Source: a phage
Reading direction: 5' to 3' (one strand)
DNA: 44,418 nucleotides
Sequence record: PX502252.1
The first letter of the stretch is position 1; each line of letters opens with the position of its first letter. The position numbers and the translations under genes are program-made. This document shows, in pieces, positions 1 through 44,418 of this stretch. The notes beneath the pieces were generated by a model. It did no database searches. It was not told the DNA's origin and worked only from the letters and a program-made list of their open reading frames with translations.

Positions 1-88
1 TATCTGACTATTGCTTCGCATAATATTGATAGGCCATTCCTTCGGGAGTGGCCTTTTCTTTTACCTACTACCTGTAACATTTCATTAA
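1..88. repeat. Exact duplicate of window end (1-88 = 44331-44418); circular-permutation or assembly overlap carrying the last 23 nt of the RNAP gene and its terminator
   Basis: Direct comparison of first and last 88 bases of the window: identical. Confidence 0.9.
31..62 (+). terminator. Hairpin terminator downstream of RNA polymerase gene (copy of 44358-44389)
   Basis: AGGCCATTCC-TTCG-GGAGTGGCCT stem (9 bp, one G-U) with tetraloop, followed by TTTTCTTTT. Confidence 0.6.
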
Positions 89-97
89 CATAAACGT

Positions 98-113
98 GTC
101 TCACATGTGAGAC
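98..113. promoter_or_regulatory. 16-bp perfect palindrome GTCTCACATGTGAGAC (site 1 of 7), immediately upstream of a phage promoter
   Basis: Sequence is its own reverse complement; recurs at 281, 2649, 3757, 8492, 24999, 38880 (variants). Confidence 0.7.
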
Positions 114-3755: not shown

Positions 3756-3780
3756 TGTCTCACGCGTGAGACAGCCTTTT
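3756..3780 (+). terminator. Palindrome variant TGTCTCACGCGTGAGACA followed by GCCTTTT (site 4); hairpin plus T-run
   Basis: 18-bp perfect palindrome with centre CGCG instead of ATGT, then T-tract. Confidence 0.5.
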
Positions 3781-6946: not shown

Positions 6947-7246
6947 ATGATGGAAGAAGTAATTCAAGCTAAACATGTAGGTATCATCTTTCGTGATTTA
7001 GAGCAGCGTAAAGTTGCAGGTCACACTCGTCTGGCTAAAGAAGAAGACACAGCAATCACTACTGTTGAACAAGCAGATGCCTATCGTGGGCCAGAGTTTA
7101 CTCAAGGTGAAACTTGTCACCAATTGAGCCTGTCGCTTTGTGATACTATTGCTAGTGTGAATGTTCAAGAAGTTGAAGACGGTGAGATTGTTAGTTACGT
7201 CTACCCTCTAGACACTATTGCACGCATTAAAGTAATTCATAAATAA
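6947..7246 (+). CDS. Hypothetical protein (99 aa)
   Basis: TAAGGAG upstream; start 6947 or 6950. Confidence 0.6.
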   Translation: MMEEVIQAKHVGIIFRDLEQRKVAGHTRLAKEEDTAITTVEQADAYRGPEFTQGETCHQLSLSLCDTIASVNVQEVEDGEIVSYVYPLDTIARIKVIHK

Positions 7247-7267
7247 TTACTGGACACTATAGAACAA
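7245..7267 (+). promoter_or_regulatory. SP6-type phage promoter variant (AATTACTGGACACTATAGAACAA) overlapping stop codon of upstream gene
   Basis: Core ACTGGACACTATAGAA conserved; downstream AAGAG replaced by ACAA. Confidence 0.6.
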
Positions 7268-7455
7268 TAGGACGTGGGTTTGTCAGAGACAGTAAATCCA
7301 AGGTGCTCAGTGAGCGTAAAGCCTAAGCACGTCCTATGATTGTAAAGTGTTGAACCTTATTGTGCATCTTGCACAACCCGATATAGTATCGGGCTTTCTA
7401 GTGAGTACATGCTTGTGCTCAGTACAAAGCTAACTGACAATAGGAGACTAAATAA

Positions 7456-8262
7456 ATGGCACGTTCTGAATTTAACTATGGTGCTGATGTAACTAAGACA
7501 GAGGGTAAGGTATTTAAGAACCCTGAAGTAGGTGATCATGAAGCAGTAATCTCTGGCATCATTCATGTTGGTTCCTTCCAAGACATTTTTAAGAAAGGCA
7601 ATACCACTGAAGTCAAGAAGCCAGCAAACTTTGTTCTTGTTAAGATTGTCCTGATGGGCGACGATGATAAGAACGAAGATGACTCTCGCATGGAACAATG
7701 GATGGCTGTGCCTCTGAAGTCTGGTGATAAGGCAACACTAACTAAGTTCCTGAATGCAGTTGACCCTAAAGAGTTGCTGGGTGGCTTCGATGATTTTATC
7801 GGTGAATGTCTGACTGCAACTATGGTTGGCTCTGGCGACAAGAATGATGATGGTACTTTCAAGTATGTTAACTGGAAAGGCTTTGGTGGTATGCCGGATA
7901 AGCTGAAGAAACTTGTCATTGCTCAGGTTGAAGAAGAGGGTCTGTCTATGACAGGTCATATTACCTTCGACAAGCTGACCAAAGAAATCCTTGATGATAT
8001 TCCTGCTAACTTGGTGCGTCAATACTTCCTGAACGAGACGCCTCGTGGCAAGAACCTGTCTGTTGCTGGCTCTCACGTAGAAGCAATCATCAAAGCTGCT
8101 CGTGAAGAAGACCCAGAGTGGAAGAAAGCTAAGAAGAAAGATGAAGAGGATGCCACTCCAGCTAATCGTAGATCTCTGGATACAGACGAGTCTGTTCCAC
8201 AGGAAGTACCTGAAGCGGAGGACAACCCTGCACCTGAAATGGATGAAGACGCGGAATACTAA
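7456..8262 (+). CDS. Hypothetical protein (268 aa) with acidic C-terminal tail ending in Tyr; candidate ssDNA-binding protein
   Basis: TAGGAGA upstream; C-terminus ...EAEDNPAPEMDEDAEY; function inferred only from tail and position among replication genes. Confidence 0.7.
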   Translation: MARSEFNYGADVTKTEGKVFKNPEVGDHEAVISGIIHVGSFQDIFKKGNTTEVKKPANFVLVKIVLMGDDDKNEDDSRMEQWMAVPLKSGDKATLTKFLNAVDPKELLGGFDDFIGECLTATMVGSGDKNDDGTFKYVNWKGFGGMPDKLKKLVIAQVEEEGLSMTGHITFDKLTKEILDDIPANLVRQYFLNETPRGKNLSVAGSHVEAIIKAAREEDPEWKKAKKKDEEDATPANRRSLDTDESVPQEVPEAEDNPAPEMDEDAEY

Positions 8263-8491: not shown

Positions 8492-8507
8492 GTCTCACGT
8501 GTGAGAC
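8492..8507. promoter_or_regulatory. Palindrome variant GTCTCACGTGTGAGAC (site 5), 15 bp upstream of phage promoter
   Basis: Same arms GTCTCAC/GTGAGAC with centre GT. Confidence 0.65.
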
Positions 8508-8522
8508 AAATCGGTGTCCGGT

Positions 8523-8545
8523 ATTTACTGGACACTATAGAAGAG
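8523..8545 (+). promoter_or_regulatory. SP6-type phage promoter (ATTTACTGGACACTATAGAAGAG)
   Basis: Full consensus match. Confidence 0.8.
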
Positions 8546-8595: not shown

Positions 8596-8970
8596 ATGTT
8601 CAAGATTGAAACTATCGTAAACCGTGTTGTCAAAGGTGCTGCTCTGGTATCCGTTGAGTCTTTCATTATCGTCGATGAAGCTGATCAACTGGTAGCTGGT
8701 ACTAAGGCTTACGATACCCGTGAAGAAGCTCAGGCTAAGATTGACAGCATGGGTAACTTCGCTGCTGGTCTGGAGTTCGCTCGTGCTTGCTTCCCTGAGC
8801 AGGCTGACAAAGCTCAGATTGGTAAGGCTAATATCGTAGCTGAATATCTGGATTGGGTTGCTGCTGGTAAACCAGTGAAAGAAGTTAAGGCTGCTGAAGA
8901 AGCTGAAGCTCCAGCAGCAGAAGAAGTAGCTGCACCGGAAACTCCGGTAAGCGAAGAGGAAGAATTTTGA
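8596..8970 (+). CDS. Small acidic protein (124 aa) ending EEEEF; own promoter and terminator, likely abundant
   Basis: AAAGGAGA SD; flanked by promoter 8523 and terminator 9030; codon usage biased to common codons; C-terminal acidic tail with terminal Phe. Confidence 0.8.
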   Translation: MFKIETIVNRVVKGAALVSVESFIIVDEADQLVAGTKAYDTREEAQAKIDSMGNFAAGLEFARACFPEQADKAQIGKANIVAEYLDWVAAGKPVKEVKAAEEAEAPAAEEVAAPETPVSEEEEF

Positions 8971-9029
8971 TAATAGCAGGTGTTGCCTCTGTTAGTCCTG
9001 GTTGACTATCACGCTCACCTCATCTAATG

Positions 9030-9061
9030 CCCTGTCTGCCTTAGTGTAGGCAGGGTCTTTT
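9030..9061 (+). terminator. Stem-loop plus T-run terminator (CCCTGTCTGCC...GGCAGGGTCTTTT)
   Basis: GC-rich inverted repeat followed by TCTTTT; same architecture as terminator at 18121. Confidence 0.65.
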
Positions 9062-9087
9062 GCGTAATAGTTATTGGAGAATGAATT

Positions 9088-9360
9088 ATGCCGACTATTG
9101 AATCTCGAATTGAACTGGACATTAGCTATAATGCAATCACCAGACAATACATTGGGGTGGCCTATGATTACAAAACTGGTGAGAAGCTAGTGGAGGTGAG
9201 ACAATGGGATGACTATTGGTTAAGACAGAACCTCCATGATGCGGTGTCCTCCTTCTTGAAGGAGTGGCCTACATGCGACCAAACTTCGACTTCGGAGCTA
9301 CAGTATCGGAAGACAATAATCTCATCCTGTGGCCAACTGAAGGTAATAGAATCGCTTTAA
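9088..9360 (+). CDS. Hypothetical protein (90 aa); 3' end overlaps exonuclease start in another frame
   Basis: ATG with GGAGA upstream; overlap of about 88 nt with next gene makes extent uncertain. Confidence 0.4.
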   Translation: MPTIESRIELDISYNAITRQYIGVAYDYKTGEKLVEVRQWDDYWLRQNLHDAVSSFLKEWPTCDQTSTSELQYRKTIISSCGQLKVIESL

Positions 9361-10301
9361 TAGATGCTGATATGCTACCTTATATTGTAGGGTACACAAT
9401 CAGTGACATGACTTATGTACGAGCCACAACTCGTGTTAAGTCAGGACAAGTCCCATCAATCAAAGATACACCTGAGTGTAAGCAAGCATGTGACCGTGTG
9501 AACTCCTTGCTTAACTCTTGGGTGTATGCAGCAGAGTGCGATGCAGCTAAGTTATTCATGACGAAATCAGAAGCTAACTTCCGTGTTCGCCTAGCATTCA
9601 CCAAGCCTTACAAAGGTCAACGTAAGACTGAGAAGCCTCCATTCTTCTATGAATTGCGAGAGCATCTCTTAGAGGTTCATGGTGCAATCTTGGCAGATGG
9701 AGAAGAAGCGGATGACCTCATGAGCATCACACAATGGGATAGCCACCGCCGCTTCCAGCAAGATACAGGTAACGAGTTCCCTATCGGTAGTCCAGAGCAT
9801 AAAGCATTCTCTGACACTTGCATCGTTTCCTTGGATAAGGATTTGATGATTGTTCCCGGTTGGCATCTACAGCCGGGAGGTGAGAAGAAATGGGTAGAGC
9901 CTATGGGTTGGCTTGAGCTACGCCGCAAGGCTAATGGTCAAGTGAAAGACCTTAAAGGTGCTGGCCTCATGTTCCATTATGCACAGATGATTATCGGTGA
10001 TGATATTGATAATTACGCTGGCATACCCGGACGTGGTGCTAAATACGCCTATGATCTTCTCAAAGATTGTAAGACAGAGAAAGAGTTGTACATGGCAGTG
10101 CTTGGTGCATATAAGGCTAAGTTCGGACATGGACAAGTTAAGATTAAGAATTACCGAGGTGGTTATCGTATCGGCAAGGCTTTTGATCTCATGCTTGAAT
10201 GTGGTCGCCTAGCTCACATGGCAAGATTCAAAGGTGACATCTGGCGAGCCGATAAGAATGAAATCTTATGGGGAGAAGGTGATGGATGGCTAGTAAACTA
10301 A
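9273..10301 (+). CDS. 5'-3' exonuclease, FEN family (T7 gp6-like)
   Basis: IALIDADMLPYIV (N-terminal Asp cluster), GEEADDLM, SLDKDLM motifs; ATG 9273 with AAGGAG 8 nt upstream (ORF track shows GTG 9264). Confidence 0.85.
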   Translation: MRPNFDFGATVSEDNNLILWPTEGNRIALIDADMLPYIVGYTISDMTYVRATTRVKSGQVPSIKDTPECKQACDRVNSLLNSWVYAAECDAAKLFMTKSEANFRVRLAFTKPYKGQRKTEKPPFFYELREHLLEVHGAILADGEEADDLMSITQWDSHRRFQQDTGNEFPIGSPEHKAFSDTCIVSLDKDLMIVPGWHLQPGGEKKWVEPMGWLELRRKANGQVKDLKGAGLMFHYAQMIIGDDIDNYAGIPGRGAKYAYDLLKDCKTEKELYMAVLGAYKAKFGHGQVKIKNYRGGYRIGKAFDLMLECGRLAHMARFKGDIWRADKNEILWGEGDGWLVN

Positions 10302-10696
10302 AATCTTCAGAGGTGGCAGCTTATAAGAAAGAGCTTATGGAGAAGCAAGGTTGGAAGTGCCCTCTGTGCGGAGGCAGCCTCAAGGCAGTAAGTCCTATCA
10401 ACCGTGTACTTGACCATGATCATGAGACAGGTTTCTGTCGTGCTGTTGTGTGTCGAGGTTGCAACGGTGCAGAAGGAAAGATTAAAGGTGTTATATCTGG
10501 CTACGGAAAGGCAGGTAATAACCGCTACTTCCAACTACAATGGTTAGAACGCCTGTATAACTACTGGAAGCTACATAGTACACCTCAGACAGATAAGTTA
10601 TATCATAATCATAAAACGGAGGCAGAGAAACGAGAGGCTAAGAATCGTAAAGCTCGCCTTGCTTATGCAAGAAAGAAGGAGGTTAAGAGTAGCTAA
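10286..10696 (+). CDS. Endonuclease VII-like Holliday-junction resolvase
   Basis: CPLCG...DHDHETGFCRAVVCRGCN matches T4 endo VII zinc/His motif pattern. Confidence 0.8.
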   Translation: MASKLKSSEVAAYKKELMEKQGWKCPLCGGSLKAVSPINRVLDHDHETGFCRAVVCRGCNGAEGKIKGVISGYGKAGNNRYFQLQWLERLYNYWKLHSTPQTDKLYHNHKTEAEKREAKNRKARLAYARKKEVKSS

Positions 10697-10960
10697 ACTT
10701 CGTAGCCTTTATAAAGACTCCGAGGTGCTTGATGCAATCGAGCAAGCTACCGACGAGAAAGGTAATGTTAACTATAATGAGATGGCGAAGATTCTATCTA
10801 GCCACCCTGTGGGTAAGAAGATCACCGTCAACTTGCTCGCTATTGGCATGGTCAATTCAAGAAGACCAAGAAGAATGGTGATTACTACCAGACTCTTCTG
10901 CAAGAGGATAAGCGTATCAAAGAAGAGCGTAAGCTCAGGACTCCTGACCGCTACGAGGAT

Positions 10961-11695
10961 TTGGCTATTGTACCATTGCCTGACTCGCCTCATCGAAGTG
11001 TACTGGTAATCCCTGATACTCATGCACCTTATGAGCACCCCGATACCTTAGAGTTCCTTGCAGCAGTGGCAGCACGTTATCGACCAGACACAGTGGTACA
11101 TCTTGGAGATGAGGCAGATAAACATGCCCTGTCATTCCATGATTCGGATCCAAATTTGGACAGTGCTGGCATGGAGTTAGAGAAAGCTCGTGTCTTCATG
11201 CACAAGTTGCACAAGATGTTTCCTGTGATGCGCCTGTGTCACTCTAATCACGGCTCTATGCACTTCCGTAAGGCAAGCGCCAAGGGTATTCCAGTGCAAT
11301 ATCTTCGTACCTACCGAGAAGTCTTCTTCCCGCAGGGAGGTGGCGACCAGTGGGATTGGCAGCATACGCATGTACTTGAGTTGCCGAATGGCGAACAGGT
11401 GGCATTCAAGCATCAACCTGCTGGCTCTGTCCTAGCAGATGCAGCGCATGAGCGTATGAATCTTGTGTGTGGTCACTTGCATGGTAAGATGTCTGTGGAG
11501 TACGCACGTAATACACATGAACAGTATTGGGCTGTGCAGGGTGGCTGCTTAATTGATGAGTCATCCCGTGCATTTGCCTATGGGCGTGAGTCTAAATACA
11601 AGCCAGCATTAGGTTGTGTGGTTATTCTGGAAGGTGTGCCTCATATTGTCCCGATGCAAACCAATAGCGACAACCGTTGGATTGGCAAGATTTAG
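10961..11695 (+). CDS. Calcineurin-like metallophosphoesterase; start codon uncertain (TTG at 10961, no in-frame ATG upstream)
   Basis: VLVIPDTHAPYEHPD (DxH), HLGDEAD (GDxxD), NHG, GHLH motifs; frame open from 10817 without ATG/GTG. Confidence 0.7.
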   Translation: MAIVPLPDSPHRSVLVIPDTHAPYEHPDTLEFLAAVAARYRPDTVVHLGDEADKHALSFHDSDPNLDSAGMELEKARVFMHKLHKMFPVMRLCHSNHGSMHFRKASAKGIPVQYLRTYREVFFPQGGGDQWDWQHTHVLELPNGEQVAFKHQPAGSVLADAAHERMNLVCGHLHGKMSVEYARNTHEQYWAVQGGCLIDESSRAFAYGRESKYKPALGCVVILEGVPHIVPMQTNSDNRWIGKI

Positions 11696-11712
11696 TTGAC
11701 ACTATAGAACAA
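11690..11712 (+). promoter_or_regulatory. SP6-type phage promoter variant (ATTTAGTTGACACTATAGAACAA)
   Basis: Core TGACACTATAGAA conserved; upstream ATTTAG as in SP6 itself. Confidence 0.6.
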
Positions 11713-11795
11713 AGGGCTAGGTAAGACTTTATCGGCTGGCGTATCCAAATGATATTGCACTAGCCCTTGATTGTATAGTGAATGGAGGATTCAAT

Positions 11796-12299
11796 ATGTC
11801 ACACTATGAATGTAAGAAGTGTCATAAGCGTTATGATTACTGTACTTGTGGTCAAGAGAAAACATCTTTTAAAGTTGGAGACAAGGTAATTCGTAATGAA
11901 AAAGATTCGATTCCTTGGAATCAATACTGCAAAGAAGCTGGTATTGACCCTGATAGCCCTGTAACCATAGATGATATTGATGGCATTAACTTGTGCTTTC
12001 GTGAGGTGAGGGGTACAGGTTGGGATTCCAAAAAATTCAAACTTGCATCTGATAAGTTAGACAACAATATGGTAACTCAGCCTAAGCACTACGAGTTCTT
12101 TGATGGCGTAGAGGCAATCACTATCATTGCCCGCAGTATGACTGAAAAGCAATTCGCTGGGTACTGCATGGGTAATGCCCTTAAGTATCGCCTGCGTGCA
12201 GGTAAGAAGTTCAATACTGAAGAAGACCTGAAGAAAGCAGACTACTACAAAGAGCTATTCCAGAAGCACCGTCACGAATGTATTGATGAGGATATTTGA
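11796..12299 (+). CDS. DUF3310-like protein with N-terminal Cys-rich zinc ribbon (167 aa)
   Basis: GGAGGA 6 nt upstream of ATG 11796; CKKCHKRYDYCTC; C-terminal HYEFFDGVEAI...GNALKYRLRAGKK...EDLKKADYY resembles DUF3310 signature. Confidence 0.7.
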   Translation: MSHYECKKCHKRYDYCTCGQEKTSFKVGDKVIRNEKDSIPWNQYCKEAGIDPDSPVTIDDIDGINLCFREVRGTGWDSKKFKLASDKLDNNMVTQPKHYEFFDGVEAITIIARSMTEKQFAGYCMGNALKYRLRAGKKFNTEEDLKKADYYKELFQKHRHECIDEDI

Positions 12300-12300
12300 T

Positions 12301-13248
12301 ATGAATATCTTTGAGTTCCTAGGTCTTCCAGAAGACCACCGCAATCACCCATTCATGCTGGTGAAGCATCGCGGTGAAGTTCCTGAGAAGAAATTAACTT
12401 TTCCATGTTATGCACAGGTGAAACGAGATGGTATCTTTTCTGCTGTTGTTGTTCGCACTGATGGTGTCGTTGGCATTTTTGGTCGCACTGGTAAGAAATT
12501 GGCAAACACTGAAGGACTCGAACAAGCCTTTGCTACCTTTCCGGTTGGCATTTATCTTGGTGAGCTTCAGTCTATGGCCATTGATATCTACCTTGAGGCA
12601 ATCTCTGGGGTTGTGAACCCTAATCGTACCGAGCCACTTGATTTCATAGGCCAGCAGATTAAAGACAACCTGTATATCGACTTCTTCGATATGTTAACCA
12701 TTAAGGCATTCCATGATGGATTCACTGATGTTTCTTATCTCAAACGTTACGATGCTTTACATCGTCGCATCGGCACTCATCTTAGCGGGTACAACGCTAT
12801 TCTTCCTATTACTCCTTGCCATAATGAGCGAGAAGTTGAAGCGTTTGCGCAAGAGCAAATAGATGCAGGCCGAGAGGGTGCTGTGTTTAAACTTGACGTG
12901 GAGTATGAAAGTGGGCACAAGGGCTATCGTCAAACGAAGATCGTTCGTATGGTATCTTACGACCTAACCTGTATTGGGTGGGAGGAAGGAAAAGGTAAGT
13001 ATAAAGGTAAAGTAGCTAACCTCATTTTCAAATGGAAAGGAGGCAAGTCTGTTAAGGCTATGCTGGGTCGTGGCTGGTCACATGAGGATGCAGCCCAAAT
13101 GTATCACGATATTAAGCACGGTGGCGAACTGAACGTCATTGGGAAGATCTTCGCTGTCAAGGCGTTGCAGGAATCTAGCAAGGGAGTCCTGAGACTTCCC
13201 AAGGTTTCTGAATTACGCCACGATAAGGAGGTTCCTGATGTTTATTGA
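12301..13248 (+). CDS. ATP-dependent DNA ligase
   Basis: KxDG adenylation motif (AQVKRDGIF); position and size as in T7-like ligases; start ATG 12301 right after upstream stop (alternative 12286). Confidence 0.85.
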   Translation: MNIFEFLGLPEDHRNHPFMLVKHRGEVPEKKLTFPCYAQVKRDGIFSAVVVRTDGVVGIFGRTGKKLANTEGLEQAFATFPVGIYLGELQSMAIDIYLEAISGVVNPNRTEPLDFIGQQIKDNLYIDFFDMLTIKAFHDGFTDVSYLKRYDALHRRIGTHLSGYNAILPITPCHNEREVEAFAQEQIDAGREGAVFKLDVEYESGHKGYRQTKIVRMVSYDLTCIGWEEGKGKYKGKVANLIFKWKGGKSVKAMLGRGWSHEDAAQMYHDIKHGGELNVIGKIFAVKALQESSKGVLRLPKVSELRHDKEVPDVY

Positions 13249-13363
13249 TTTGAACGAAAAACAGCTTGAATTGTTAATAGAAGCCATTGAGCAATACTAT
13301 TACATGTGGGGCTATCAGTCAGAAGAATTAGACTCCTTATATTCACAACTAAAAGGAGGTTAA
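13238..13363 (+). CDS. Small protein (41 aa)
   Basis: Strong SD AAGGAGG 6 nt upstream; MFIDLNEKQLELLIEAIEQYYYMWGYQSEELDSLYSQLKGG; below ORF-track cutoff. Confidence 0.45.
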   Translation: MFIDLNEKQLELLIEAIEQYYYMWGYQSEELDSLYSQLKGG

Positions 13364-13365
13364 TT

Positions 13366-13563
13366 ATGTCTTTTGATTCTATGAAGGCAACTCGTGCTGT
13401 TGAGGTAGCAGAGGCCATCTTCGAAACTCTATCCTGTGGCATGGAAGTGCCATATACTTTACTGGCTGATGCAGAAGAACTTGGTCTTTCTGTAGAAGCT
13501 ATCCAAGAGAAGGTTGAGGAATTATATGGCACAGACGAAGAAGAAACCGACGATTTCATTTGA
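13366..13563 (+). CDS. Small acidic protein (65 aa)
   Basis: AAAGGAGG SD 5 nt upstream of ATG 13366 (ORF track started upstream at 13306). Confidence 0.6.
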   Translation: MSFDSMKATRAVEVAEAIFETLSCGMEVPYTLLADAEELGLSVEAIQEKVEELYGTDEEETDDFI

Positions 13564-13696
13564 AGGGATGGAGATGCTTGAGGTGATCCTCAAGCCTTCC
13601 TCTCCGAAAGTGACTAAGACTCATGAAGAGTTAGTCGTAGATGAAGTGAAGCGTTACATTATGGATTGTGTTAGAGCACAACTGGTGGTTCAATGA
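13526..13696 (+). CDS. Small basic protein (56 aa), overlapping neighbours
   Basis: GAGGAA upstream of ATG 13526; stop overlaps next start (ATGA). Confidence 0.4.
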   Translation: MAQTKKKPTISFEGMEMLEVILKPSSPKVTKTHEELVVDEVKRYIMDCVRAQLVVQ

Positions 13697-14154
13697 TACG
13701 TCCAGCTTCCTTCCTAGATATTCCTGAGATTATTAATCTCGGAGACAAGTATGTAGAAGAAGAAGTCAAGGTAGTGGCACATCATTCTGCGTCGTGGAAT
13801 GCGGAACAAAGTGCAGCTAACCTATGTGCCTCTCTAATCAGAGAGGATTTATTCCTGTGGGTTGCTGTAGATGAAGGGCAGATTGTAGGCTTCCTGTGGG
13901 CTGGTTATCATGACCTAGCACCTTGGACGCCAGTGCGTGTTGCGTCTGATATTCTCTTCTATATTGTACCGGAGAAGCGAGGGACGCTACTTGGTATGCG
14001 ACTAATCAAAGCCTACAAGCAATGGGCTTTTGAGAAAGGGTGTGCTGAGGTACGCATGTCAATAGCCTCTGGTATTAATGAGGAACGTGTTGGACGTATG
14101 TATAGGCGACTAGGCTTTGAGACGTTCGGCACTGTATATAACTTAAAACTTTAA
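13693..14154 (+). CDS. GNAT-family N-acetyltransferase
   Basis: Acetyl-CoA binding-like segment EKRGTLLGMRLIKAY and C-terminal YRRLGFE typical of GNAT fold. Confidence 0.7.
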   Translation: MIRPASFLDIPEIINLGDKYVEEEVKVVAHHSASWNAEQSAANLCASLIREDLFLWVAVDEGQIVGFLWAGYHDLAPWTPVRVASDILFYIVPEKRGTLLGMRLIKAYKQWAFEKGCAEVRMSIASGINEERVGRMYRRLGFETFGTVYNLKL

Positions 14155-14163
14155 GGAGATAAC

Positions 14164-14373
14164 ATGGGTGTCGTGAAGAAGGCATTTAAAGCAATTGGTC
14201 TTGCATCTGATACGCCGAAAATTGAGGCAGCGAAAGTGCCAGCACAACAACTAGAACGTCAGCCTGAGACGGAAGCAGAAGATGTGACGCTGGGTCAGGA
14301 CGAGGACACCACAACCACTTCTCGTGGTAAGCGTGGGTTAGTTCGCCCTGTAGCATCAAGCTTAGGAGTATAA
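14164..14373 (+). CDS. Hypothetical protein (69 aa) upstream of portal
   Basis: AAGGAGA SD; position analogous to small T7 virion genes 6.7/7.3. Confidence 0.6.
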   Translation: MGVVKKAFKAIGLASDTPKIEAAKVPAQQLERQPETEAEDVTLGQDEDTTTTSRGKRGLVRPVASSLGV

Positions 14374-14377
14374 TATA

Positions 14378-15925
14378 ATGCAAGACACCGACCTTGAGTA
14401 CGGTGGTAAGCGGTCGAAGATACCTAAGCTTTGGGAGAAGCTATCTACTAAGCGTAACCCTTTCATGGACAGGGCAAAGCACTATGCGAGGTTGACTTTG
14501 CCTTATCTCATGAATGAGGAGGGAGACAACAATACCTCTCAGAATGGGTGGCAAGGTGTAGGTGCTCAGGCTACTAACCACTTAGCTAACAAGTTAGCGC
14601 AAGTTCTCTTCCCGGCTCAACGCTCTTTCTTCCGAGTAGACTTGACAGCAAAAGGGGAGAAGATATTAAACAACAGAGGTCTTAAGAAGACCAAATTAGC
14701 TACACTGTTTGCTCAAGTAGAGACTGCTGCTATGAAGCAATTAGAGCAACGGCAGTTCCGCCCAGCGGTGGTGGAGTGCTTCAAGCATTTGATTGTTGCT
14801 GGCAACTGTATGTTGTACAAGCCAAGCAAGGGTGCAATCAGTGCTATACCTATGCACCACTATGTAGTTAATAGAGATGCCAATGGTGAACTGCTGGATA
14901 TTATCTTACTGCAAGAGAAGGCTCTCAAGACATTCGACCCTGCAACTCGCATGGCTATTGAAGTAGGCATGAAAGGTAAGAAGTGTAAAGATAGTGATAA
15001 TGTAAAACTTTATACACATGCCAAGTATGAAGGTGAAGGTTTTTGGGAACTAAAGCAATCTGCTGATGATATTCCTGTAGGTAAGGTGAGTAAAATCAAA
15101 TCAGAAAAGCTACCTTTCATTCCACTGACTTGGAAGCGAAGCTATGGTGAGGATTGGGGTCGGCCTCTTGCAGAGGATTATTCTGGAGACTTATTCGTAA
15201 TCCAATTCCTATCCGAAGCAGTTGCCCGTGGCGCTGCTTTGATGGCCGACATTAAATACCTGATTCGTCCAGGTGCTCAGACAGATGTAGACCACTTTGT
15301 TAACTCAGGTACAGGTGAAGTAATTACTGGCGTGGAAGAAGACATCCATATTGTACAGTTAGGTAAGTATGCAGATCTAACACCCATAAGTGCTGTACTA
15401 GAGGTTTATACCCGCCGCATAGGTGTAGTCTTCATGATGGAGACAATGACACGTAGGGATGCAGAACGTGTAACTGCTGTAGAGATACAGAGAGATGCTC
15501 TTGAGATTGAGCAGAACATGGGTGGTGTGTATTCCCTCTTTGCAACTACCATGCAGACGCCCGTGGCTATGTGGGGTTTGCTTGATGCAGGTGACTCTTT
15601 CACTAGTGACCTAGTAGACCCTGTTATCATCACAGGCATTGAAGCGTTAGGTCGCATGGCAGAGTTGGATAAGCTGGCTAACTTTGCTCAGTATATGGCA
15701 TTACCTATGAGTTGGCCTGAGCCGGTACAGGCAGCAGTAAACTGGCCGGATTATATGGATTGGGTTCGGGGTCAGATCTCTGCTGAACTTCCATTCTTAA
15801 AGTCAGAAGAGCAGATGAAGCAAGAACAAGCACAGATGGCACAAGCACAGCAAGAGCAGATGCTTAATGAAGGAGTAGCTAAAGCTGTGCCGGGTGTCAT
15901 TCAACAAGAACTTAAGGAGGCGTAA
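14378..15925 (+). CDS. Portal (head-tail connector) protein, T7 gp8-like
   Basis: 515 aa; position before scaffold and capsid; N-terminal region resembles T7 gp8; acidic/Q-rich C-terminus. Confidence 0.88.
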   Translation: MQDTDLEYGGKRSKIPKLWEKLSTKRNPFMDRAKHYARLTLPYLMNEEGDNNTSQNGWQGVGAQATNHLANKLAQVLFPAQRSFFRVDLTAKGEKILNNRGLKKTKLATLFAQVETAAMKQLEQRQFRPAVVECFKHLIVAGNCMLYKPSKGAISAIPMHHYVVNRDANGELLDIILLQEKALKTFDPATRMAIEVGMKGKKCKDSDNVKLYTHAKYEGEGFWELKQSADDIPVGKVSKIKSEKLPFIPLTWKRSYGEDWGRPLAEDYSGDLFVIQFLSEAVARGAALMADIKYLIRPGAQTDVDHFVNSGTGEVITGVEEDIHIVQLGKYADLTPISAVLEVYTRRIGVVFMMETMTRRDAERVTAVEIQRDALEIEQNMGGVYSLFATTMQTPVAMWGLLDAGDSFTSDLVDPVIITGIEALGRMAELDKLANFAQYMALPMSWPEPVQAAVNWPDYMDWVRGQISAELPFLKSEEQMKQEQAQMAQAQQEQMLNEGVAKAVPGVIQQELKEA

Positions 15926-16824
15926 TGTCTTTTGAAATTATTAATGAACCTGTAAGTCAGTCTGACGTTACTGAATCTAAGGAGGCTGCTGATGTTAATA
16001 CTACCGACAACGATTCTACTGTTGATTCTTCTGGCAGCGATGTACAAGCTGACACAAGCAGTACAGATGTACAAGACACCAGAGGAGAAGATGCTGGAGA
16101 AGATGGAGCGGGAGCAGAGGCTGGTGGACAGGATGATAAATCTGAGCCAAATGACACCACAGATGCGCGGTTCTTCTTCGGTGAACAAGAAGTAGAGATT
16201 GAGATTCCTGATGACGTGTCAACTGCCTTGAAAGAGAAAGGTATTGATGCTATGCAGGTTGCCAAGGAGTTGTATGGCGAAGGTGGTAAATTTGAACTCA
16301 AGGAAGAGACAAAGCAGAAGTTGTATGATGCTTTTGGTAAGTTTGCTGTAGACGCCTACCTGAATGGCCTTAAGGCCTCCAACGAAGCATTCATGCTCAA
16401 AGCTGAGACTCAAGCAAAAGAGGCGGAGGCTGCTGATGCTCAGCGCTTCACTGATATTGCATCTGAGGTTGGAGGGGAAGAAGGTTGGTCACGCCTTGAA
16501 GAGTGGGCGCTTGAAACCCTCTCGGATGAGGAGCTAACCGCGTTTAATGCTGTTATGGCCTCTGGCAACCAGTACCTGCAACAATATGCTGTTCGTGAAC
16601 TGGAAGGTCGCCGTAAGCAAGCGCAAGGGGACGATAAGCCGTCTCTGATTGAGCCATCAGCACCTGCTAAGGCTAATGAGGATAACGGGCCATTAACTCG
16701 CGATCAGTATGTACATGCCATTGCAACTCTGAGCCAGAAGTATGGTAATGACCGTAAGGCTATGGCAGAAGCTCAGGCTAAACTGGATGCCCGTCGCCGT
16801 GCTGGCATGGCTCGCGGTATCTAA
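15925..16824 (+). CDS. Capsid assembly (scaffolding) protein, T7 gp9-like
   Basis: Highly acidic, D/E/A-rich 299 aa protein between portal and major capsid. Confidence 0.85.
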   Translation: MSFEIINEPVSQSDVTESKEAADVNTTDNDSTVDSSGSDVQADTSSTDVQDTRGEDAGEDGAGAEAGGQDDKSEPNDTTDARFFFGEQEVEIEIPDDVSTALKEKGIDAMQVAKELYGEGGKFELKEETKQKLYDAFGKFAVDAYLNGLKASNEAFMLKAETQAKEAEAADAQRFTDIASEVGGEEGWSRLEEWALETLSDEELTAFNAVMASGNQYLQQYAVRELEGRRKQAQGDDKPSLIEPSAPAKANEDNGPLTRDQYVHAIATLSQKYGNDRKAMAEAQAKLDARRRAGMARGI

Positions 16825-16830
16825 TTCAGT

Positions 16831-16853
16831 ATTTACTGGACACTATAGAAGGG
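16831..16853 (+). promoter_or_regulatory. SP6-type phage promoter (ATTTACTGGACACTATAGAAGGG) upstream of major capsid gene
   Basis: Full consensus match. Confidence 0.8.
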
Positions 16854-16903
16854 AGAAAAGTTCTCCCTAGTTATCAATTTGATTTATAAGGAGATTATAA
16901 CAC

Positions 16904-18112
16904 ATGTCTACACCGAATACTCTGACTAACGTTGCTGTATCTGCGTCCGGTGAGGTTGACAGCCTTCTCATTGAGAAGTTTAATGGTAAAGTCAATGAGC
17001 AGTACCTGAAAGGTGAGAACATTCTGTCTTACTTTGATGTACAAACTGTTACTGGCACTAACACAGTGAGCAACAAATATTTGGGCGAGACTGAGTTGCA
17101 GGTGCTGGCACCGGGTCAGTCTCCTAATGCCACCCCTACTCAGGCGGATAAAAACCAGTTGGTAATTGATACCACTGTCATTGCTCGTAACACTGTGGCT
17201 CACATCCACGATGTACAAGGTGACATCGACAGCCTGAAACCTAAACTGGCTATGAACCAAGCCAAGCAACTGAAACGTCTGGAAGACCAGATGGCAATTC
17301 AGCAGATGCTGTTAGGCGGCATTGCTAACACCAAAGCAAAACGTGACAAGCCTCGCGTAAAAGGTCATGGCTTCTCTATCAACGTTAACGTAACTGAAAG
17401 TGAAGCACTGGCTAACCCGCAGTATGTCATGGCTGCGGTAGAATATGCTCTGGAGCAACAGCTTGAGCAGGAAGTGGACATCTCTGATGTAGCTATCATG
17501 ATGCCATGGAAGTTCTTCAATGCTCTGCGTGATGCGGATCGTATTGTAGATAAGACTTACACTATTAGCCAATCTGGTGCAACCATTAACGGTTTCGTTC
17601 TGTCTTCTTACAACTGCCCTGTGATCCCATCTAACCGATTCCCTACCTTTACTCAGGGTCAGGCTCACCACCTGTTGTCTAATGAAGATAATGGCTATCG
17701 TTATGACCCCATCGCAGAGATGAATGGTGCAGTTGCTGTGCTGTTTACTGCCGACGCACTGCTTGTAGGTCGGACTATTGAAGTGACTGGTGACATCTTC
17801 TATGAGAAGAAAGAGAAGACTTACTATATCGATACCTTCATGGCTGAAGGTGCAATCCCTGATCGCTGGGAGGCTGTGTCTGTAGTTACCACTAAACGCA
17901 ACGGAACCTCTGGTGCTGCTCAGGGTGCAGGCGACGACCACGACACTGTACTGGCTCGTGCACAGCGTAAGGCTGTATATGTCAAGACCGCAGGCGCTGC
18001 GGCTGCATTCTCTGCTGCACCCGTAGGTATCCAAGCAGAAGACCTAGTAGCGGCGGTACGTGCTGTAATGGTAAATGACATCAAGCCTACTGCACTGAAA
18101 CCTACTGAGTAA
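16904..18112 (+). CDS. Major capsid protein, T7 gp10-like
   Basis: 402 aa; dedicated promoter and terminator; position after scaffold. Confidence 0.92.
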   Translation: MSTPNTLTNVAVSASGEVDSLLIEKFNGKVNEQYLKGENILSYFDVQTVTGTNTVSNKYLGETELQVLAPGQSPNATPTQADKNQLVIDTTVIARNTVAHIHDVQGDIDSLKPKLAMNQAKQLKRLEDQMAIQQMLLGGIANTKAKRDKPRVKGHGFSINVNVTESEALANPQYVMAAVEYALEQQLEQEVDISDVAIMMPWKFFNALRDADRIVDKTYTISQSGATINGFVLSSYNCPVIPSNRFPTFTQGQAHHLLSNEDNGYRYDPIAEMNGAVAVLFTADALLVGRTIEVTGDIFYEKKEKTYYIDTFMAEGAIPDRWEAVSVVTTKRNGTSGAAQGAGDDHDTVLARAQRKAVYVKTAGAAAAFSAAPVGIQAEDLVAAVRAVMVNDIKPTALKPTE

Positions 18113-18120
18113 TAACCTAT

Positions 18121-18156
18121 GCCCTATCTACCTTGCGTAGGTAGGGTTCTTTTGTT
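18121..18156 (+). terminator. Stem-loop plus T-run terminator after capsid gene (GCCCTATCTACC...GGTAGGGTTCTTTTG)
   Basis: Same architecture as 9030-9061. Confidence 0.7.
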
Positions 18157-18167
18157 TAGGAGGATTC

Positions 18168-18908
18168 ATGCCTTTAATTCAAAATACAAGTGATGTTGGG
18201 CGTATCATGGCTGAGGCTTCCTTCAATATCATTGATAGTAAGCTGGAGGCAGTCAACCTGTGTATGCGAGCTATTGGTCGTGAGGGTGTGGATTCCCTTG
18301 ACTCTGGCGACTTAGATGCTGAAGATGCTAACAAGATTATTGATATTGTCTCACAACGCTTCCAATACAACAAGGGTGGTGGTTGGTGGTTTAACAGAGA
18401 ACCTAATTGGCTACTTAAACCTGACACAAATGGTGAAGTGAACATGCCTAACAATTGTCTTGCTGTTCTCCAATGTTATGCTCTAGGTGAACGTAAAGTA
18501 CCTATGACTATACGCGCAGGCAAGTTGTACTCTGTTTGGAATCACACTTTCGATATGTCAAAGTATGTGAATCAGGATGGGCGTATTAGGTTGACTCTGG
18601 TAACATTACTGCCTTTCGAGCATCTACCTGCAAGTGTAATGCAGGCCATTGCCTATCAGGCTGCCGTAGAGTTTATTGTGTCTAAAGATGCAGATAAGAC
18701 TAAACTACAAGCACACCAGCAGATTGCAGCACAATTGATGATTGATGTTCAGTCAGAGCAGTCTTCTCAGAAGAGACTTAATATGCTTGTACATAACCCC
18801 ACTCAGCGCAACTTTGGCATCATGGCAGGTGGATCTCAGAATGTACCAGCGTTCTCCTATTCACCTTATGACACTTACCCTGTAAGGCCGTGGGAGGTTG
18901 ATAGATAA
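18168..18908 (+). CDS. Tail tubular protein A, T7 gp11-like
   Basis: 246 aa; synteny after capsid. Confidence 0.85.
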   Translation: MPLIQNTSDVGRIMAEASFNIIDSKLEAVNLCMRAIGREGVDSLDSGDLDAEDANKIIDIVSQRFQYNKGGGWWFNREPNWLLKPDTNGEVNMPNNCLAVLQCYALGERKVPMTIRAGKLYSVWNHTFDMSKYVNQDGRIRLTLVTLLPFEHLPASVMQAIAYQAAVEFIVSKDADKTKLQAHQQIAAQLMIDVQSEQSSQKRLNMLVHNPTQRNFGIMAGGSQNVPAFSYSPYDTYPVRPWEVDR

Positions 18909-21313
18909 TGGAAGTACAAGGTTCTTTAGGTCGTCAGATTCAAGGTATTAGCCAACAACCAGCAGCAGTACGGTTAGACGGTCAATGTACTGATATGGTT
19001 AATATGGTTCCAGATGTAGTCAACGGTACACAATCCCGCATGGGTAGCACTCATATTGCAAAGCTAATGGAAGCAGGCAGTGACAATATGGCAACACATC
19101 ACTATAGAAGAGGGGATGGGGTAGAAGAGTATTTCTTTGTCATGAAGAAAGGTAGCGTGCCAGAAATATTTGACAAAGAAGGGCGTAAATGCACTGTGAT
19201 CTCTCAGGATGCACCTATGGCTTATCTTGCTGAGGTTGTGAACCCGAGAGAAGACGTGCAGTTCATGACTATTGCTGATGTAACATTTATGCTTAACAGG
19301 CGTAAAGTAGTGAAAGCTCGTAGTGATAAGTCTCCAAGTGTGGGAAACAAGGCTATTGTGTTTTCTGCCTACGGGCAGTATGGCACTTCGTACACTATCT
19401 CTATTAACGGCGAGCAAGCGGCGACCTTCAAAACTCCAGATGGAAGTGACCCTAGTCATGTAGAACAGATTCGCACTGAGTACCTAGCCACTAAGCTATA
19501 TGAGAGTTTACAGACATGGAGTAAAGCGTCACAGTACACCTTGCAAAGAGAAGGCACTAGTATCTACATTGAAACTAAAGATGGTAGTGATTTCACTATT
19601 ACTACCACAGATGGGGCCAAGGGTAAGGACTTGGTTGCCATAAAGAACCGAGTGTCATCTACAGACTTACTTCCCTCAAGAGCACCAGAAGGGTACAAGG
19701 TACAGGTGTGGCCTACAGGGAGTAAACCAGAATCTAGGTATTGGCTAGAGGCTGTACCTAAAGAAGGAGGTAACTTAGTTGCTTGGCAAGAAACTATTGC
19801 AGCAGATGTGTTACTTGGATTTGATAAAGATACTATGCCCTATATTATAGAGCGTACAGGTATTGTAGGAGGTGTGGCGCAGTTTAAGATAAGGCACGGT
19901 GATTGGGAAGATCGTAAGGTAGGAGATGACCTGACTAACCCTATGCCTTCTTTTATTGATGAAGATGTACCACAGGCGATTGGCGGTATGTTCATGGTGC
20001 AGAACCGTCTTTGTGTTACAGCAGGCGAAGCCGTCATAGCAACTAGGACTTCTCACTTCTTTGACTTCTTTCGTTTCTCCGCAGTATCTGCTGTGGCAAC
20101 AGACCCTTTCGATATTTTCTCAGATGCAAGTGAGGTATACCAGCTTAAACATGCAGTAACCCTAGATGGGGCAACAGTATTATTCGCAGATACATCTCAG
20201 TTCATACTTCCGGGGGATAAAGTATTAGAGAAATCTAATGTCATACTCAAGCCTGCTACAACTTTCGAAGTTGACAACAGGGTGCCACCTGTGGCAACTG
20301 GTGAGTCCGTGATGTTTGCTACAAGTGAGGGTGCTTACTCTGGTGTGCGTGAGTTTTATACCGATTCTTACAGCGACACTAAGAAGGCGCAGGCTGTTAC
20401 TAGTCATGTTAACAAGTTGATAGAAGGTAATATCACTCATATGGTAGCGAGCACTAATATCAACAGATTACTTGTAGTAACAGACAAAGACCCTAATATT
20501 GTCTATTGCTACGACTGGTTGTGGCAAGGGACAGATCGTGTACAGTCTGCATGGCATAAGTGGGTGTGGCCTAAAGATACTTTGATTCGCTCTATGGTCT
20601 ATTCCTCAGAGATGTTATATCTCATTGTAGAACGAGGTAATACTGGTTTGTATCTAGAGGTTATGGATATGGGTGATGCTCTTACTTATGGTTTAGTTGA
20701 CAGAATTAGACTGGATAGGCAAGCAGAGTTGATCTTCACCTATGATGCTAATACAGACCAGTGGGTTTCTAATGAGTTGCCTTGGAAGCCTACTGACCCA
20801 GCCTTACTTGAGTGTGTGATAATTCAAGGGTGGCCTGCTTATATTGGTGGTTCTTTTCATTTTGAATATGATGAAGCCAGTAATAAGCTAATTACAACTT
20901 TTGATTTATCAGAAGAAGGCACTAATGCTATAGCTGTCGTAGGGCAGTTGTATCAGCAGGAGTTTGAGCCAACACAGGTCGTTATTCGAGATAACCAAGA
21001 TAGAGTGTCCTACATAGATGTGCCAGTGGTAGGCCTGGTTCACCTTAACTTGGATAAATACCCTGACTTTGAAGTTCATATCAAGAACTTAAAGAGTGGC
21101 AAATTAAGAAAGGCTTTGGCATCTAACAGGAAAGGCGGGGCACTTAATAATGTTGTTGGTTATGTCAAGCCAGAAGAGGGGTCATTCAAATTTCCACTAA
21201 GATCCCTTAGTACAGATACTGTTTATCGTATCATTGTTAACTCCCCTCATACATTCCAACTCAGGGATATTGAGTGGGAAGGTTCGTATAACCCAACTAA
21301 GAGGAGGGTATAA
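18908..21313 (+). CDS. Tail tubular protein B, T7 gp12-like
   Basis: 801 aa; synteny. Confidence 0.88.
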   Translation: MEVQGSLGRQIQGISQQPAAVRLDGQCTDMVNMVPDVVNGTQSRMGSTHIAKLMEAGSDNMATHHYRRGDGVEEYFFVMKKGSVPEIFDKEGRKCTVISQDAPMAYLAEVVNPREDVQFMTIADVTFMLNRRKVVKARSDKSPSVGNKAIVFSAYGQYGTSYTISINGEQAATFKTPDGSDPSHVEQIRTEYLATKLYESLQTWSKASQYTLQREGTSIYIETKDGSDFTITTTDGAKGKDLVAIKNRVSSTDLLPSRAPEGYKVQVWPTGSKPESRYWLEAVPKEGGNLVAWQETIAADVLLGFDKDTMPYIIERTGIVGGVAQFKIRHGDWEDRKVGDDLTNPMPSFIDEDVPQAIGGMFMVQNRLCVTAGEAVIATRTSHFFDFFRFSAVSAVATDPFDIFSDASEVYQLKHAVTLDGATVLFADTSQFILPGDKVLEKSNVILKPATTFEVDNRVPPVATGESVMFATSEGAYSGVREFYTDSYSDTKKAQAVTSHVNKLIEGNITHMVASTNINRLLVVTDKDPNIVYCYDWLWQGTDRVQSAWHKWVWPKDTLIRSMVYSSEMLYLIVERGNTGLYLEVMDMGDALTYGLVDRIRLDRQAELIFTYDANTDQWVSNELPWKPTDPALLECVIIQGWPAYIGGSFHFEYDEASNKLITTFDLSEEGTNAIAVVGQLYQQEFEPTQVVIRDNQDRVSYIDVPVVGLVHLNLDKYPDFEVHIKNLKSGKLRKALASNRKGGALNNVVGYVKPEEGSFKFPLRSLSTDTVYRIIVNSPHTFQLRDIEWEGSYNPTKRRV

Positions 21314-22038
21314 TGGCAGTAATGGCAACAGTAGGATCAAGCCTAGCCAGTATGTTCTCCAGTAGTGCAGGTGCTGCGGCTGCTAGTAGTGCTGCTGGTA
21401 GTGCCGCCGCTGGGAGTGGGGGTGTGCTTGGCTCTGTCGGAAGTTTCTTAGGTGGAAGCTCTGCTGGCTTTTCTAATGCAGGTTTGTTGTCTGCTGGACT
21501 ACAAGGCTTAAACTTACTAGGCGGCCTATTCGGTGGACGAGATACCGCTAAGGCTATGCAGAAAGCACAAGAAGAAGAGTGGAGACAAAGGCTAGAAGCC
21601 ACACGTGAAGCCTATTCTTCTGTGGCAAATGCAGAACGGTCTGCTGCAAAGCAATATCATTCTGACTTCCTTAATAATCAAATTTCACTGATGCAGCAAC
21701 GAGCGCAAGTTGCAGTAATGGCAGGTGCTACTGGAACAGGTGGTAGCTCCATCACATCCATGCTCAATGATTTGACGGCAGAAGGTGGTCGTAATCAGTC
21801 AACCATTATAGATAATTATGAGAATCAGCAAATCAACTTTGCCAACCAGTTGAAGTCTATTCAACGCAGTGGACAGATGCAGATGCGAACGTTTGACAAA
21901 CCTTCCGCTTTGGGTACTTTGGTGAAAGGTATACCAAGCCTTGCATCTTCCTATGTCACCGGAAGTAAAGCAGGTATGGCGCTTGGCAAGGCTATCACTG
22001 AGTCTCGTACTTATTCATCAGGAACTAGAGGAGTTTAA
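21313..22038 (+). CDS. Internal virion protein (Gly/Ala/Ser-rich N-terminus)
   Basis: 241 aa; low-complexity AAAASSAAGSAAAGSGG region; position of T7 gp13/14. Confidence 0.75.
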   Translation: MAVMATVGSSLASMFSSSAGAAAASSAAGSAAAGSGGVLGSVGSFLGGSSAGFSNAGLLSAGLQGLNLLGGLFGGRDTAKAMQKAQEEEWRQRLEATREAYSSVANAERSAAKQYHSDFLNNQISLMQQRAQVAVMAGATGTGGSSITSMLNDLTAEGGRNQSTIIDNYENQQINFANQLKSIQRSGQMQMRTFDKPSALGTLVKGIPSLASSYVTGSKAGMALGKAITESRTYSSGTRGV

Positions 22039-24998: not shown

Positions 24999-25014
24999 GT
25001 CTCACATGTGAGAC
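24999..25014. promoter_or_regulatory. 16-bp perfect palindrome GTCTCACATGTGAGAC (site 6), between internal virion protein genes
   Basis: Exact copy, flanked by T/A extending palindrome to 18 bp. Confidence 0.7.
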
Positions 25015-44350: not shown

Positions 44351-44357
44351 TATTGAT

Positions 44358-44389
44358 AGGCCATTCCTTCGGGAGTGGCCTTTTCTTTT
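44358..44389 (+). terminator. Hairpin terminator immediately downstream of RNAP stop
   Basis: AGGCCATTCC-TTCG-GGAGTGGCCT followed by TTTTCTTTT; same as 31-62. Confidence 0.65.
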
Positions 44390-44418
44390 ACCTACTACCT
44401 GTAACATTTCATTAACAT

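What the first reader, a model, noticed from the sequence alone, without database searches (positions are those of the whole stretch)
9030..18156. Two terminators of a shared architecture follow the most highly expressed genes
GCCCTGTCTGCCTTAGTGTAGGCAGGGTCTTTTG (after the 124-aa gene) and GCCCTATCTACCTTGCGTAGGTAGGGTTCTTTTG (after the major capsid gene) are clearly related, suggesting a conserved phage-RNAP terminator class comparable to T7 Tphi.
Basis: seen in the sequence. Interest (0 to 1): 0.4.

Follow-up and report, generated by a model that had tools for sequence, protein, structure and literature searches.

The report
Two known SP6-type phage transcription terminators
The two related hairpins are real transcription stop signals of an SP6/K1-5-like phage; one is base-for-base identical to the SP6 "t5" terminator already shown to stop SP6 RNA polymerase, so the finding is correct but ordinary.

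Summary
Both sequences are present exactly (9029-9062 and 18121-18154, + strand). The window is a circularly permuted Vectrevirus genome (K1-5/K1E/SP6 group). Each hairpin has an 11-bp stem containing G·U pairs, followed by (U)CUUUUG. Each closes a cassette of phage promoter, gene and terminator: P8523-gene 18-T_A, and P16831-major capsid-T_B. A covariance model finds exactly these two sites in the window and the two equivalent sites in SP6. A model built only from capsid-terminator orthologues still finds T_A (E 1e-6). Across relatives the stem is 99% paired, and 6 of 11 pairs show compensatory changes. Both elements are 100% identical to SP6. T_B is the SP6 "t5" class I terminator, where SP6 RNAP terminates 85% and T7 RNAP 16% in published single-molecule assays. 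No phage promoter lies between T_A and 11693 or between T_B and 23822, so genes 19-22 and 32-35 depend on read-through, as T7 genes 11-12 do behind Tphi. Two caveats apply: high expression of gene 18 is inferred rather than shown, and the resemblance to T7 Tphi lies in position and mechanism, not sequence. Already known; low interest.

The parts
8523..8545 (+). Phage-RNAP promoter ATTTACTGGACACTATA|GAAGAG in front of gene 18 (predicted +1 = G8540)
   Evidence: K1-5/SP6-type promoter consensus. There are 15 matches on the + strand against 0.2 expected. SP6 has the equivalent promoter at 14289.
8596..8970 (+). Gene 18 homologue, 124 aa, function unknown, with an invariant acidic C-terminus ...SEEEEF
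   Evidence: 91% identical to SP6 gp18. Matches phrog_4429, unknown function. 202 homologues were found; the listed hits come largely from ~44-kb contigs. AAGGAG Shine-Dalgarno.
9029..9062 (+). Terminator T_A: stem 9029-9039 / 9046-9056 (11 bp, 3 G.U), loop 9040-9045, tail CUUUUG 9057-9062
   Evidence: RNA MFE -18.3 kcal/mol, z -4.0; antisense only -9.8. CM R1 50.7 bits, E 2.5e-12. 100% identical to SP6 14733-14766.
9088..11695 (+). Genes 19-22 (small 'DNA repair' protein, exonuclease, endonuclease VII, phosphoesterase), which have no phage promoter of their own
   Evidence: No promoter motif between 8532 and 11699. Gene names come from the K1E annotation.
16831..16853 (+). Phage-RNAP promoter ATTTACTGGACACTATA|GAAGGG in front of the major capsid gene (predicted +1 = G16848)
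   Evidence: The SP6 equivalent at 22400-22438 is the 'P8' promoter used by Song et al..
16904..18112 (+). Major capsid protein gene (402 aa)
   Evidence: phrog_267 major head protein, E 4.9e-94. Annotated as such in relatives.
18121..18154 (+). Terminator T_B (= SP6 t5): stem 18121-18131 / 18137-18147 (11 bp, 2 G.U), loop 18132-18136, tail UCUUUUG 18148-18154
   Evidence: MFE -16.4 to -17.5 kcal/mol; antisense -12.2. CM R1 53.2 bits, E 4e-13. Identical to the SP6 t5 oligonucleotide. Annotated as a terminator in MK373771.
18168..23821 (+). Tail tubular A/B and internal virion genes 32-35, promoterless up to the next promoter at 23822
   Evidence: No promoter motif between 16840 and 23828. phrog_446 tail protein.

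Best explanation
T_A and T_B are class I (hairpin plus U-run) intrinsic terminators for the phage's own single-subunit RNA polymerase. They work as leaky stops, that is, as attenuators. The nascent RNA folds into an 11-bp stem with a CCC/GGG base and G.U wobbles. The stem is followed 6-7 nt later by the end of a short rU:dA hybrid, and the polymerase is displaced and releases RNA at about 9060-9062 and 18152-18154. Each terminator closes a promoter-gene-terminator cassette (gene 18; major capsid), producing an abundant short mRNA with a protective 3' hairpin. The fraction that reads through is about 15% if the published SP6 value applies. That read-through is the only phage-RNAP transcription reaching the promoterless genes behind each terminator: nucleases 19-22 behind T_A, and tail and internal virion genes 32-35 behind T_B. 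Shown: sequence, structure, covariation, positions, and identity to SP6 t5. Taken from the literature: termination by SP6 RNAP at the identical sequence. Inferred: that this phage's RNAP (85% identical to SP6 RNAP) behaves the same way, that T_A terminates, the exact 3' ends, and the stoichiometric role.
For: Both sites are present exactly. Hairpin plus T-run, top-ranked in the window. The sense strand folds far better than the antisense strand. Among 19 distinct orthologues 99% of cells pair and 6/11 pairs show double changes, against 36-61% paired when the partner is slid. There are exactly two CM hits per genome in the window and SP6, at the same two positions in 20-odd IMG/VR contigs and in Era103. 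Consensus phage promoters lie directly upstream of both genes, with none downstream until 11693 and 23822; SP6 has the same layout. T_B is identical to SP6 t5, where SP6 RNAP terminates at 85.3% and T7 RNAP at 16.2%, at a nearly single site. The RNAP is 85% identical to SP6 RNAP. T7 has the same phi10-gene10-Tphi-11-12-phi13 layout. UAB_Phi78 and SP6 are reported to have terminators after the RNAP gene, after genes of unknown function, and after the capsid gene (PMC4837284).
Against: No termination data exist for T_A or for this phage's own polymerase. No RNA-seq was found for any SP6-like phage. The U-run is short (4 U). Some related lineages lack a T_A of this class: L144-146 carry other hairpins without a U-run, so a terminator at this position is not indispensable. 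T_A is not annotated as a terminator in MK373773, although T_B is.
Confidence: 0.85

Rival explanations
1. The hairpins act mainly on the host E. coli RNA polymerase as ordinary rho-independent terminators, not on the phage enzyme.
For: They fit the generic intrinsic-terminator pattern and are picked up by ARNold-type predictors.
Against: They lie in middle and late regions that are driven by phage promoters. A separate strong hairpin sits directly after the RNAP gene, where early host transcription should end (31-54 = 44358-44381). SP6 RNAP terminates at 85% on the identical T_B. The two roles are not mutually exclusive.
Confidence: 0.05
2. They are RNA processing or stability elements (RNase III-type sites or 3' protective hairpins) that do not release the polymerase.
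For: They are conserved intergenic stem-loops in a T7-like phage, and T7 has RNase III sites between its genes (established knowledge).
Against: The stems are only 11 bp with no internal loop. A conserved U-run follows every orthologue. Termination at the identical T_B has been measured. A stabilising effect on the terminated RNA is expected as well, not as an alternative.
Confidence: 0.04
3. The extreme conservation (100% identity to SP6) reflects module-boundary sequences kept by recombination between mosaic phages, and the T_A/T_B likeness is just shared ancestry without polymerase-specific meaning.
For: The 73-nt T_A cassette and the 63-nt T_B cassette are identical to SP6, while the flanking genes are 80-90% identical. 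Gene 19 diverges sharply after about codon 6 among relatives. One contig has an ORF inserted between gene 18 and T_A.
Against: The compensatory changes in the stems show selection on the RNA structure itself. This reading explains the conservation, not the function, and it is compatible with the best explanation.
Confidence: 0.06

Closest known systems
SP6 t5 terminator (class I, after the SP6 major capsid gene; Song et al. 2024, NAR, PMC11347151)
   Same: T_B is identical to it over 63 nt, covering the hairpin, the U-run and the downstream RBS. It occupies the same position, between the capsid gene and tail tubular protein A, and is driven by the equivalent of promoter P8.
   Different: The host phage is a Vectrevirus. 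Its promoter consensus is TACTGGACACTATAG rather than TAGGTGACACTATAG, and its RNAP is 85% identical to SP6 RNAP. Efficiency with this polymerase has not been measured.
SP6 hairpin after gene 18 (SP6 14733-14766); probably one of the 'seven SP6 RNAP terminators' that Song et al. count, possibly t4 by genome order (my inference)
   Same: T_A is 100% identical to it through the gene 19 start codon. It sits between the same promoter and gene 18 on one side and gene 19 on the other.
   Different: The window and K1-5-type phages carry a 57-nt spacer between the gene 18 stop codon and the hairpin, which SP6 lacks. I found no experimental test of this element.
T7 Tphi (class I terminator after gene 10)
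   Same: The layout matches: strong late promoter, major capsid gene, hairpin plus U-run ending in G, then promoterless tail tubular genes that depend on read-through. The stem base is CCC(C)/(G)GGG in both.
   Different: There is no detectable sequence relationship (R1 9.5 bits, E 0.32). Tphi is a 15-bp, -28 kcal/mol hairpin with U6, against 11 bp, -16 to -18 kcal/mol and U4 here. T7 has no second terminator of this kind in its DNA-metabolism region.

Membership tests
Class I (hairpin-dependent) intrinsic terminators of single-subunit phage RNAPs | Stable G+C-based RNA hairpin on the transcribed sense strand | tested here: met
   MFE -18.3 (z -4.0) and -16.4/-17.5 kcal/mol. The antisense strand gives -9.8 and -12.2 because the G.U pairs become C.A.
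Class I (hairpin-dependent) intrinsic terminators of single-subunit phage RNAPs | Run of U directly 3' of the stem | tested here: met
   GGGU-CUUUUG and GGGU-UCUUUUG. A U-run is present in all 19 distinct orthologues.
Class I (hairpin-dependent) intrinsic terminators of single-subunit phage RNAPs | Co-oriented with and downstream of phage promoters, in an intergenic position | tested here: met
   Promoters at 8523 and 16831 on the same strand. The hairpins lie between ORFs.
Class I (hairpin-dependent) intrinsic terminators of single-subunit phage RNAPs | Structure maintained by compensatory substitutions | tested here: met
   99% of cells paired; 6/11 pairs and 29 cells with changes on both sides; 0/500 shuffles reach the covariation score; slid controls give 36-61% paired.
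Class I (hairpin-dependent) intrinsic terminators of single-subunit phage RNAPs | Release of RNA by the cognate polymerase at the site | not testable with these tools
   Literature only: SP6 RNAP terminates at 85.3% on the sequence identical to T_B. There are no data for T_A or for this phage's RNAP.
SP6 t5 / SP6-group terminator sequence class | Sequence and structure match to the capsid-terminator orthologue model | tested here: met
   With R2, built without any T_A sequence: T_B 55.4 bits, T_A 32.3 bits (E 1.2e-6), and nothing else below E 3 in window plus SP6. R1 gives two hits per genome.
T7 Tphi as a homologous sequence family | Detectable sequence/structure similarity to Tphi | tested here: not met
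   R1 scores Tphi at 9.5 bits, E 0.32 in 4.6 kb. The stem length and loop differ.
Class II (hairpin-independent) T7-RNAP pause/termination signals | Conserved ATCTGTT element followed by a U-run | tested here: not met
   Neither 34-mer contains ATCTGTT. T_B has only ATCTACC and T_A only TGTCTGCC (sequences).
RNase III processing sites of T7-like phages | Duplex of about two helical turns, usually with an internal loop | tested here: not met
   Uninterrupted 11-bp stems with 5-6 nt loops.
Any curated Rfam family | Match at the gathering threshold | tested here: not met
   0 matches in the whole window.

The most novel reading that the evidence does not exclude
The SP6-group hairpins may form a polymerase-specific terminator class, meaning that features beyond 'hairpin plus U-run' are read by SP6-type RNAPs. 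Candidate features are the AUG-CCC stem base, the conserved internal U.G wobble, and the GGGU(U)CUUUUG tail. This could explain why SP6 RNAP stops at 85% and T7 RNAP at only 16% on t5. It could also explain why the same motif is kept at exactly two sites per genome across genera, possibly with copying between the two sites.
Probability: 0.15. Interest if true: 0.4.

Novelty: already known. Interest (0 to 1): 0.15.

Why it matters
The result confirms the transcription map of this phage. There are two monocistronic high-output cassettes, gene 18 and the major capsid, and two blocks of genes whose dose is set by terminator read-through. That is useful for annotation and for engineering SP6/K1-5-type phages or SP6-RNAP expression systems. 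The only open points of wider interest are that T_A has never been measured, and that the 85% versus 16% difference between SP6 and T7 RNAP on t5 hints at polymerase-specific terminator recognition.

Tried and rejected
- Rfam scan of the window: no family matched.
- The primary SP6/K1-5 genome papers (Scholl 2004, Dobbins 2004) are not held. The published numbering of T_A therefore could not be checked.
- Literature searches for transcriptomes of SP6-like phages found nothing.
- A degenerate pattern scan of IMG/VR returned a mixture of SP6-like contigs and unrelated contigs that match by construction. It was used only as a sanity check.
- Concerted evolution of T_A and T_B within genomes: within-genome similarity is slightly higher than cross-genome similarity (permutation 512/40320). 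However, the eight lineages fall into only three clades, and Era103 T_A is as close to SP6 T_B as to its own T_B. I do not claim it.
- Function of gp18: no Pfam, NCBIfam or PDB match. The AlphaFold model has mean pLDDT 60, too poor for a fold search. gp16 has no PDB relative either.
- Chance similarity is rejected.
Full report
**Observation.** Both quoted 34-mers occur once each, at 9029-9062 and 18121-18154 on the + strand, and never in shuffled sequence. The first lies 58 nt after the stop codon of a 124-aa ORF (8596-8970). The second lies 8 nt after the stop codon of a 402-aa ORF (16904-18112), which is the major head protein (phrog_267, E 5e-94). Together with a hairpin directly after the RNA polymerase gene, they are the three strongest hairpin-plus-T-run sites in the window.

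**What the window is.** It is a phage of the SP6/K1-5/K1E group (Autographiviridae, Molineuxvirinae, Vectrevirus). The region around T_A is 97% identical to K1-5, and the capsid region is up to 92% identical to phage LL11. Bases 1-91 repeat exactly at 44328-44418, so the window is a circularly permuted assembly with an overlap. The RNA polymerase (41723-44350) is 85% identical to SP6 RNAP.

**Anatomy.**
- T_A is GCCCUGUCUGC / CUUAGU / GUAGGCAGGGU followed by CUUUUG.
- T_B is GCCCUAUCUAC / CUUGC / GUAGGUAGGGU followed by UCUUUUG.
- Each forms an 11-bp stem, with three G.U pairs in T_A and two in T_B.
- Folding energies are -18.3 kcal/mol for T_A and -16.4 to -17.5 kcal/mol for T_B. The antisense strands reach only -9.8 and -12.2, because G.U pairs become C.A. 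That asymmetry points to a function in the + strand RNA.
- All stem differences between the two copies preserve pairing (G-C to A-U; G.U to A-U).

**Are they related beyond chance, and how many copies are there?**
- I collected the sequences downstream of gene 18 and of the capsid gene from IMG/VR relatives.
- Nineteen distinct hairpins align with 99% of cells paired. Six of 11 pairs have changes on both sides, 0/500 shuffles reach the covariation score, and sliding the partner gives only 36-61% pairing.
- A covariance model of this alignment finds exactly two sites in the window (53.2 and 50.7 bits) and the two equivalent sites in SP6. The next hits have E>7.
- A second model, built only from capsid-terminator orthologues, still finds T_A at 32.3 bits (E 1.2e-6) and nothing else.
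- In 29 further contigs the same two positions are hit.
- In the distant Erwinia phage Era103 the two best hits lie after the gp18 homologue and after the capsid gene.
- A few lineages have other hairpins without a U-run behind gene 18. One has an ORF inserted between gene 18 and T_A.
- In GenBank phages the 65-nt T_A cassette occurs once in each of 96 records, 73 of them at 99% identity or more. The 61-nt T_B cassette occurs once in each of 86 records.

**Transcription context.**
- Fifteen + strand sites carry the promoter core motif, most of them full TATTTACTGGACACTATAGAAG-type phage promoters. None is on the - strand.
- Full-consensus promoters sit directly before gene 18 (8523-8545) and before the capsid gene (16831-16853). 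Both genes have an AAGGAG ribosome-binding site.
- No promoter lies between T_A and 11693 or between T_B and 23822. Genes 19-22 (exonuclease, endonuclease VII and others) and genes 32-35 (tail tubular and internal virion proteins) can therefore be reached by the phage polymerase only by read-through.
- SP6 has the same layout. T7 has phi10-gene 10-Tphi-genes 11, 12-phi13.

**What is already known.**
- Song et al. 2024 (PMC11347151) tested a class I terminator 't5' of SP6 together with the SP6 'P8' promoter.
- Their oligonucleotide SP6-B is the SP6 sequence after the capsid gene. It is identical to the window over 63 nt, from AATAACCUAUGCCC through the start of the next gene.
- Their P8 is the SP6 capsid promoter.
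- SP6 RNAP terminated at t5 at 85.3%, at a nearly single site. T7 RNAP terminated there at 16.2%.
- They state that SP6 has seven RNAP terminators. T_A is 100% identical to SP6 14733-14766 and onward through the gene 19 start codon.
- For the SP6-like phage UAB_Phi78, terminators are reported after the RNAP gene, after genes of unknown function, and after the capsid gene, at the same positions as in SP6 (PMC4837284).
- A GenBank record of a close relative annotates T_B as a terminator.

**Mechanism.** These are leaky class I intrinsic terminators for the phage polymerase.
- Shown here: sequence, fold, covariation, copy number and position.
- From the literature: release of RNA by SP6 RNAP at the identical T_B sequence.
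- Inferred: the same behaviour with this phage's polymerase, termination at T_A, 3' ends at about 9060-9062 and 18152-18154, and the role of read-through in setting the dose of the downstream genes.

**Comparison with T7 Tphi.** The position and logic are the same, but no sequence relationship is detectable (9.5 bits, E 0.32). Tphi is a longer and stronger hairpin with six U. The hairpins do not fit class II signals, since neither contains ATCTGTT. They do not fit RNase III sites, because the stems are too short. They match no Rfam family.

**The 'most highly expressed genes' claim.** It is reasonable for the capsid gene. For gene 18 it is an inference from the cassette architecture only. gp18 is a very conserved small protein of unknown function with an invariant acidic tail ending in F. 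No family or structure match was found, and the AlphaFold model was poor.

**Verdict.** The elements are already known, and one has been tested experimentally in SP6. What remains is an untested T_A and a hint of polymerase-specific terminator recognition. Interest is low.

Noticed in passing
window 1-91 and 44328-44418: The two ends of the window are identical (91 nt, 100%). The window is therefore a circularly permuted assembly with an overlap, and the unique length is 44327 bp.
   Followed up: yes
window 31-54 (= 44358-44381): A strong hairpin, AGGCCATTCCTTCGGGAGTGGCCT followed by TTTCTTTT, sits 8 nt after the RNA polymerase gene. It is probably the early (host RNAP) terminator. SP6 has an equivalent at 6034-6055 and Era103 at 6989-7021. 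It is not of the T_A/T_B class.
   Followed up: partly
window 98-113, 281-296, 2649-2664, 3757-3772, 8492-8507, 24999-25014 (1 mismatch: 1081, 38880): The 16-nt perfect palindrome GTCTCACNNGTGAGAC has 8 matches at up to 2 mismatches (6 exact, 2 with one mismatch) against 0.15 expected. The six exact copies are intergenic or just upstream of phage promoters. It is present in K1E/K1-5-type contigs and in Erwinia phage Era103 (4 copies) but absent from SP6. It could be a protein-binding site or an RNA processing hairpin; its function is unknown.
   Followed up: partly
window 8596-8970 (gp18) and 7456-8262 (gp16): Both proteins end in acidic tails with a terminal aromatic residue (...SEEEEF...EMDEDAEY). 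This is reminiscent of the polymerase-binding tails of T7 gp2.5 and gp4 (my recollection, not tested). Neither has a Pfam, NCBIfam or PDB match. The gp18 AlphaFold model has pLDDT 60.
   Followed up: partly
window 9063-9105 and loci L005-L026: The stretch GCGTAATAGTTATTGGAGAATGAATTATGCCGACTATTGAA (RBS and first ~6 codons of gene 19) is almost invariant, even where the T_A stem differs. The rest of gene 19 is replaced by unrelated sequences in different phages. This looks like a mosaic junction or a constrained translation-initiation region.
   Followed up: partly
window 7377-7393: The hairpin CCCGATATAGTATCGGG followed by CTTTCTAGTG lies between the promoter at 7248 and gene 16. It is conserved in SP6 at 13136-13152 with a single loop change. 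It may be another of the SP6 terminators or a 5'-UTR element.
   Followed up: no
window 8971-9028: A 57-nt spacer lies between the gene 18 stop codon and T_A. It is shared with K1-5/K1E-type phages and absent from SP6, where the hairpin follows the stop codon by a few bases.
   Followed up: no
loci L144-L146 (about 10370-10470) and L140 (10280-10860): In one lineage, T_A is replaced by covarying hairpins without a U-run, followed by the conserved sequence TAGGTTGTTACTTAATAAATGGAGAG. In another contig an extra ORF is inserted between gene 18 and T_A.
   Followed up: no
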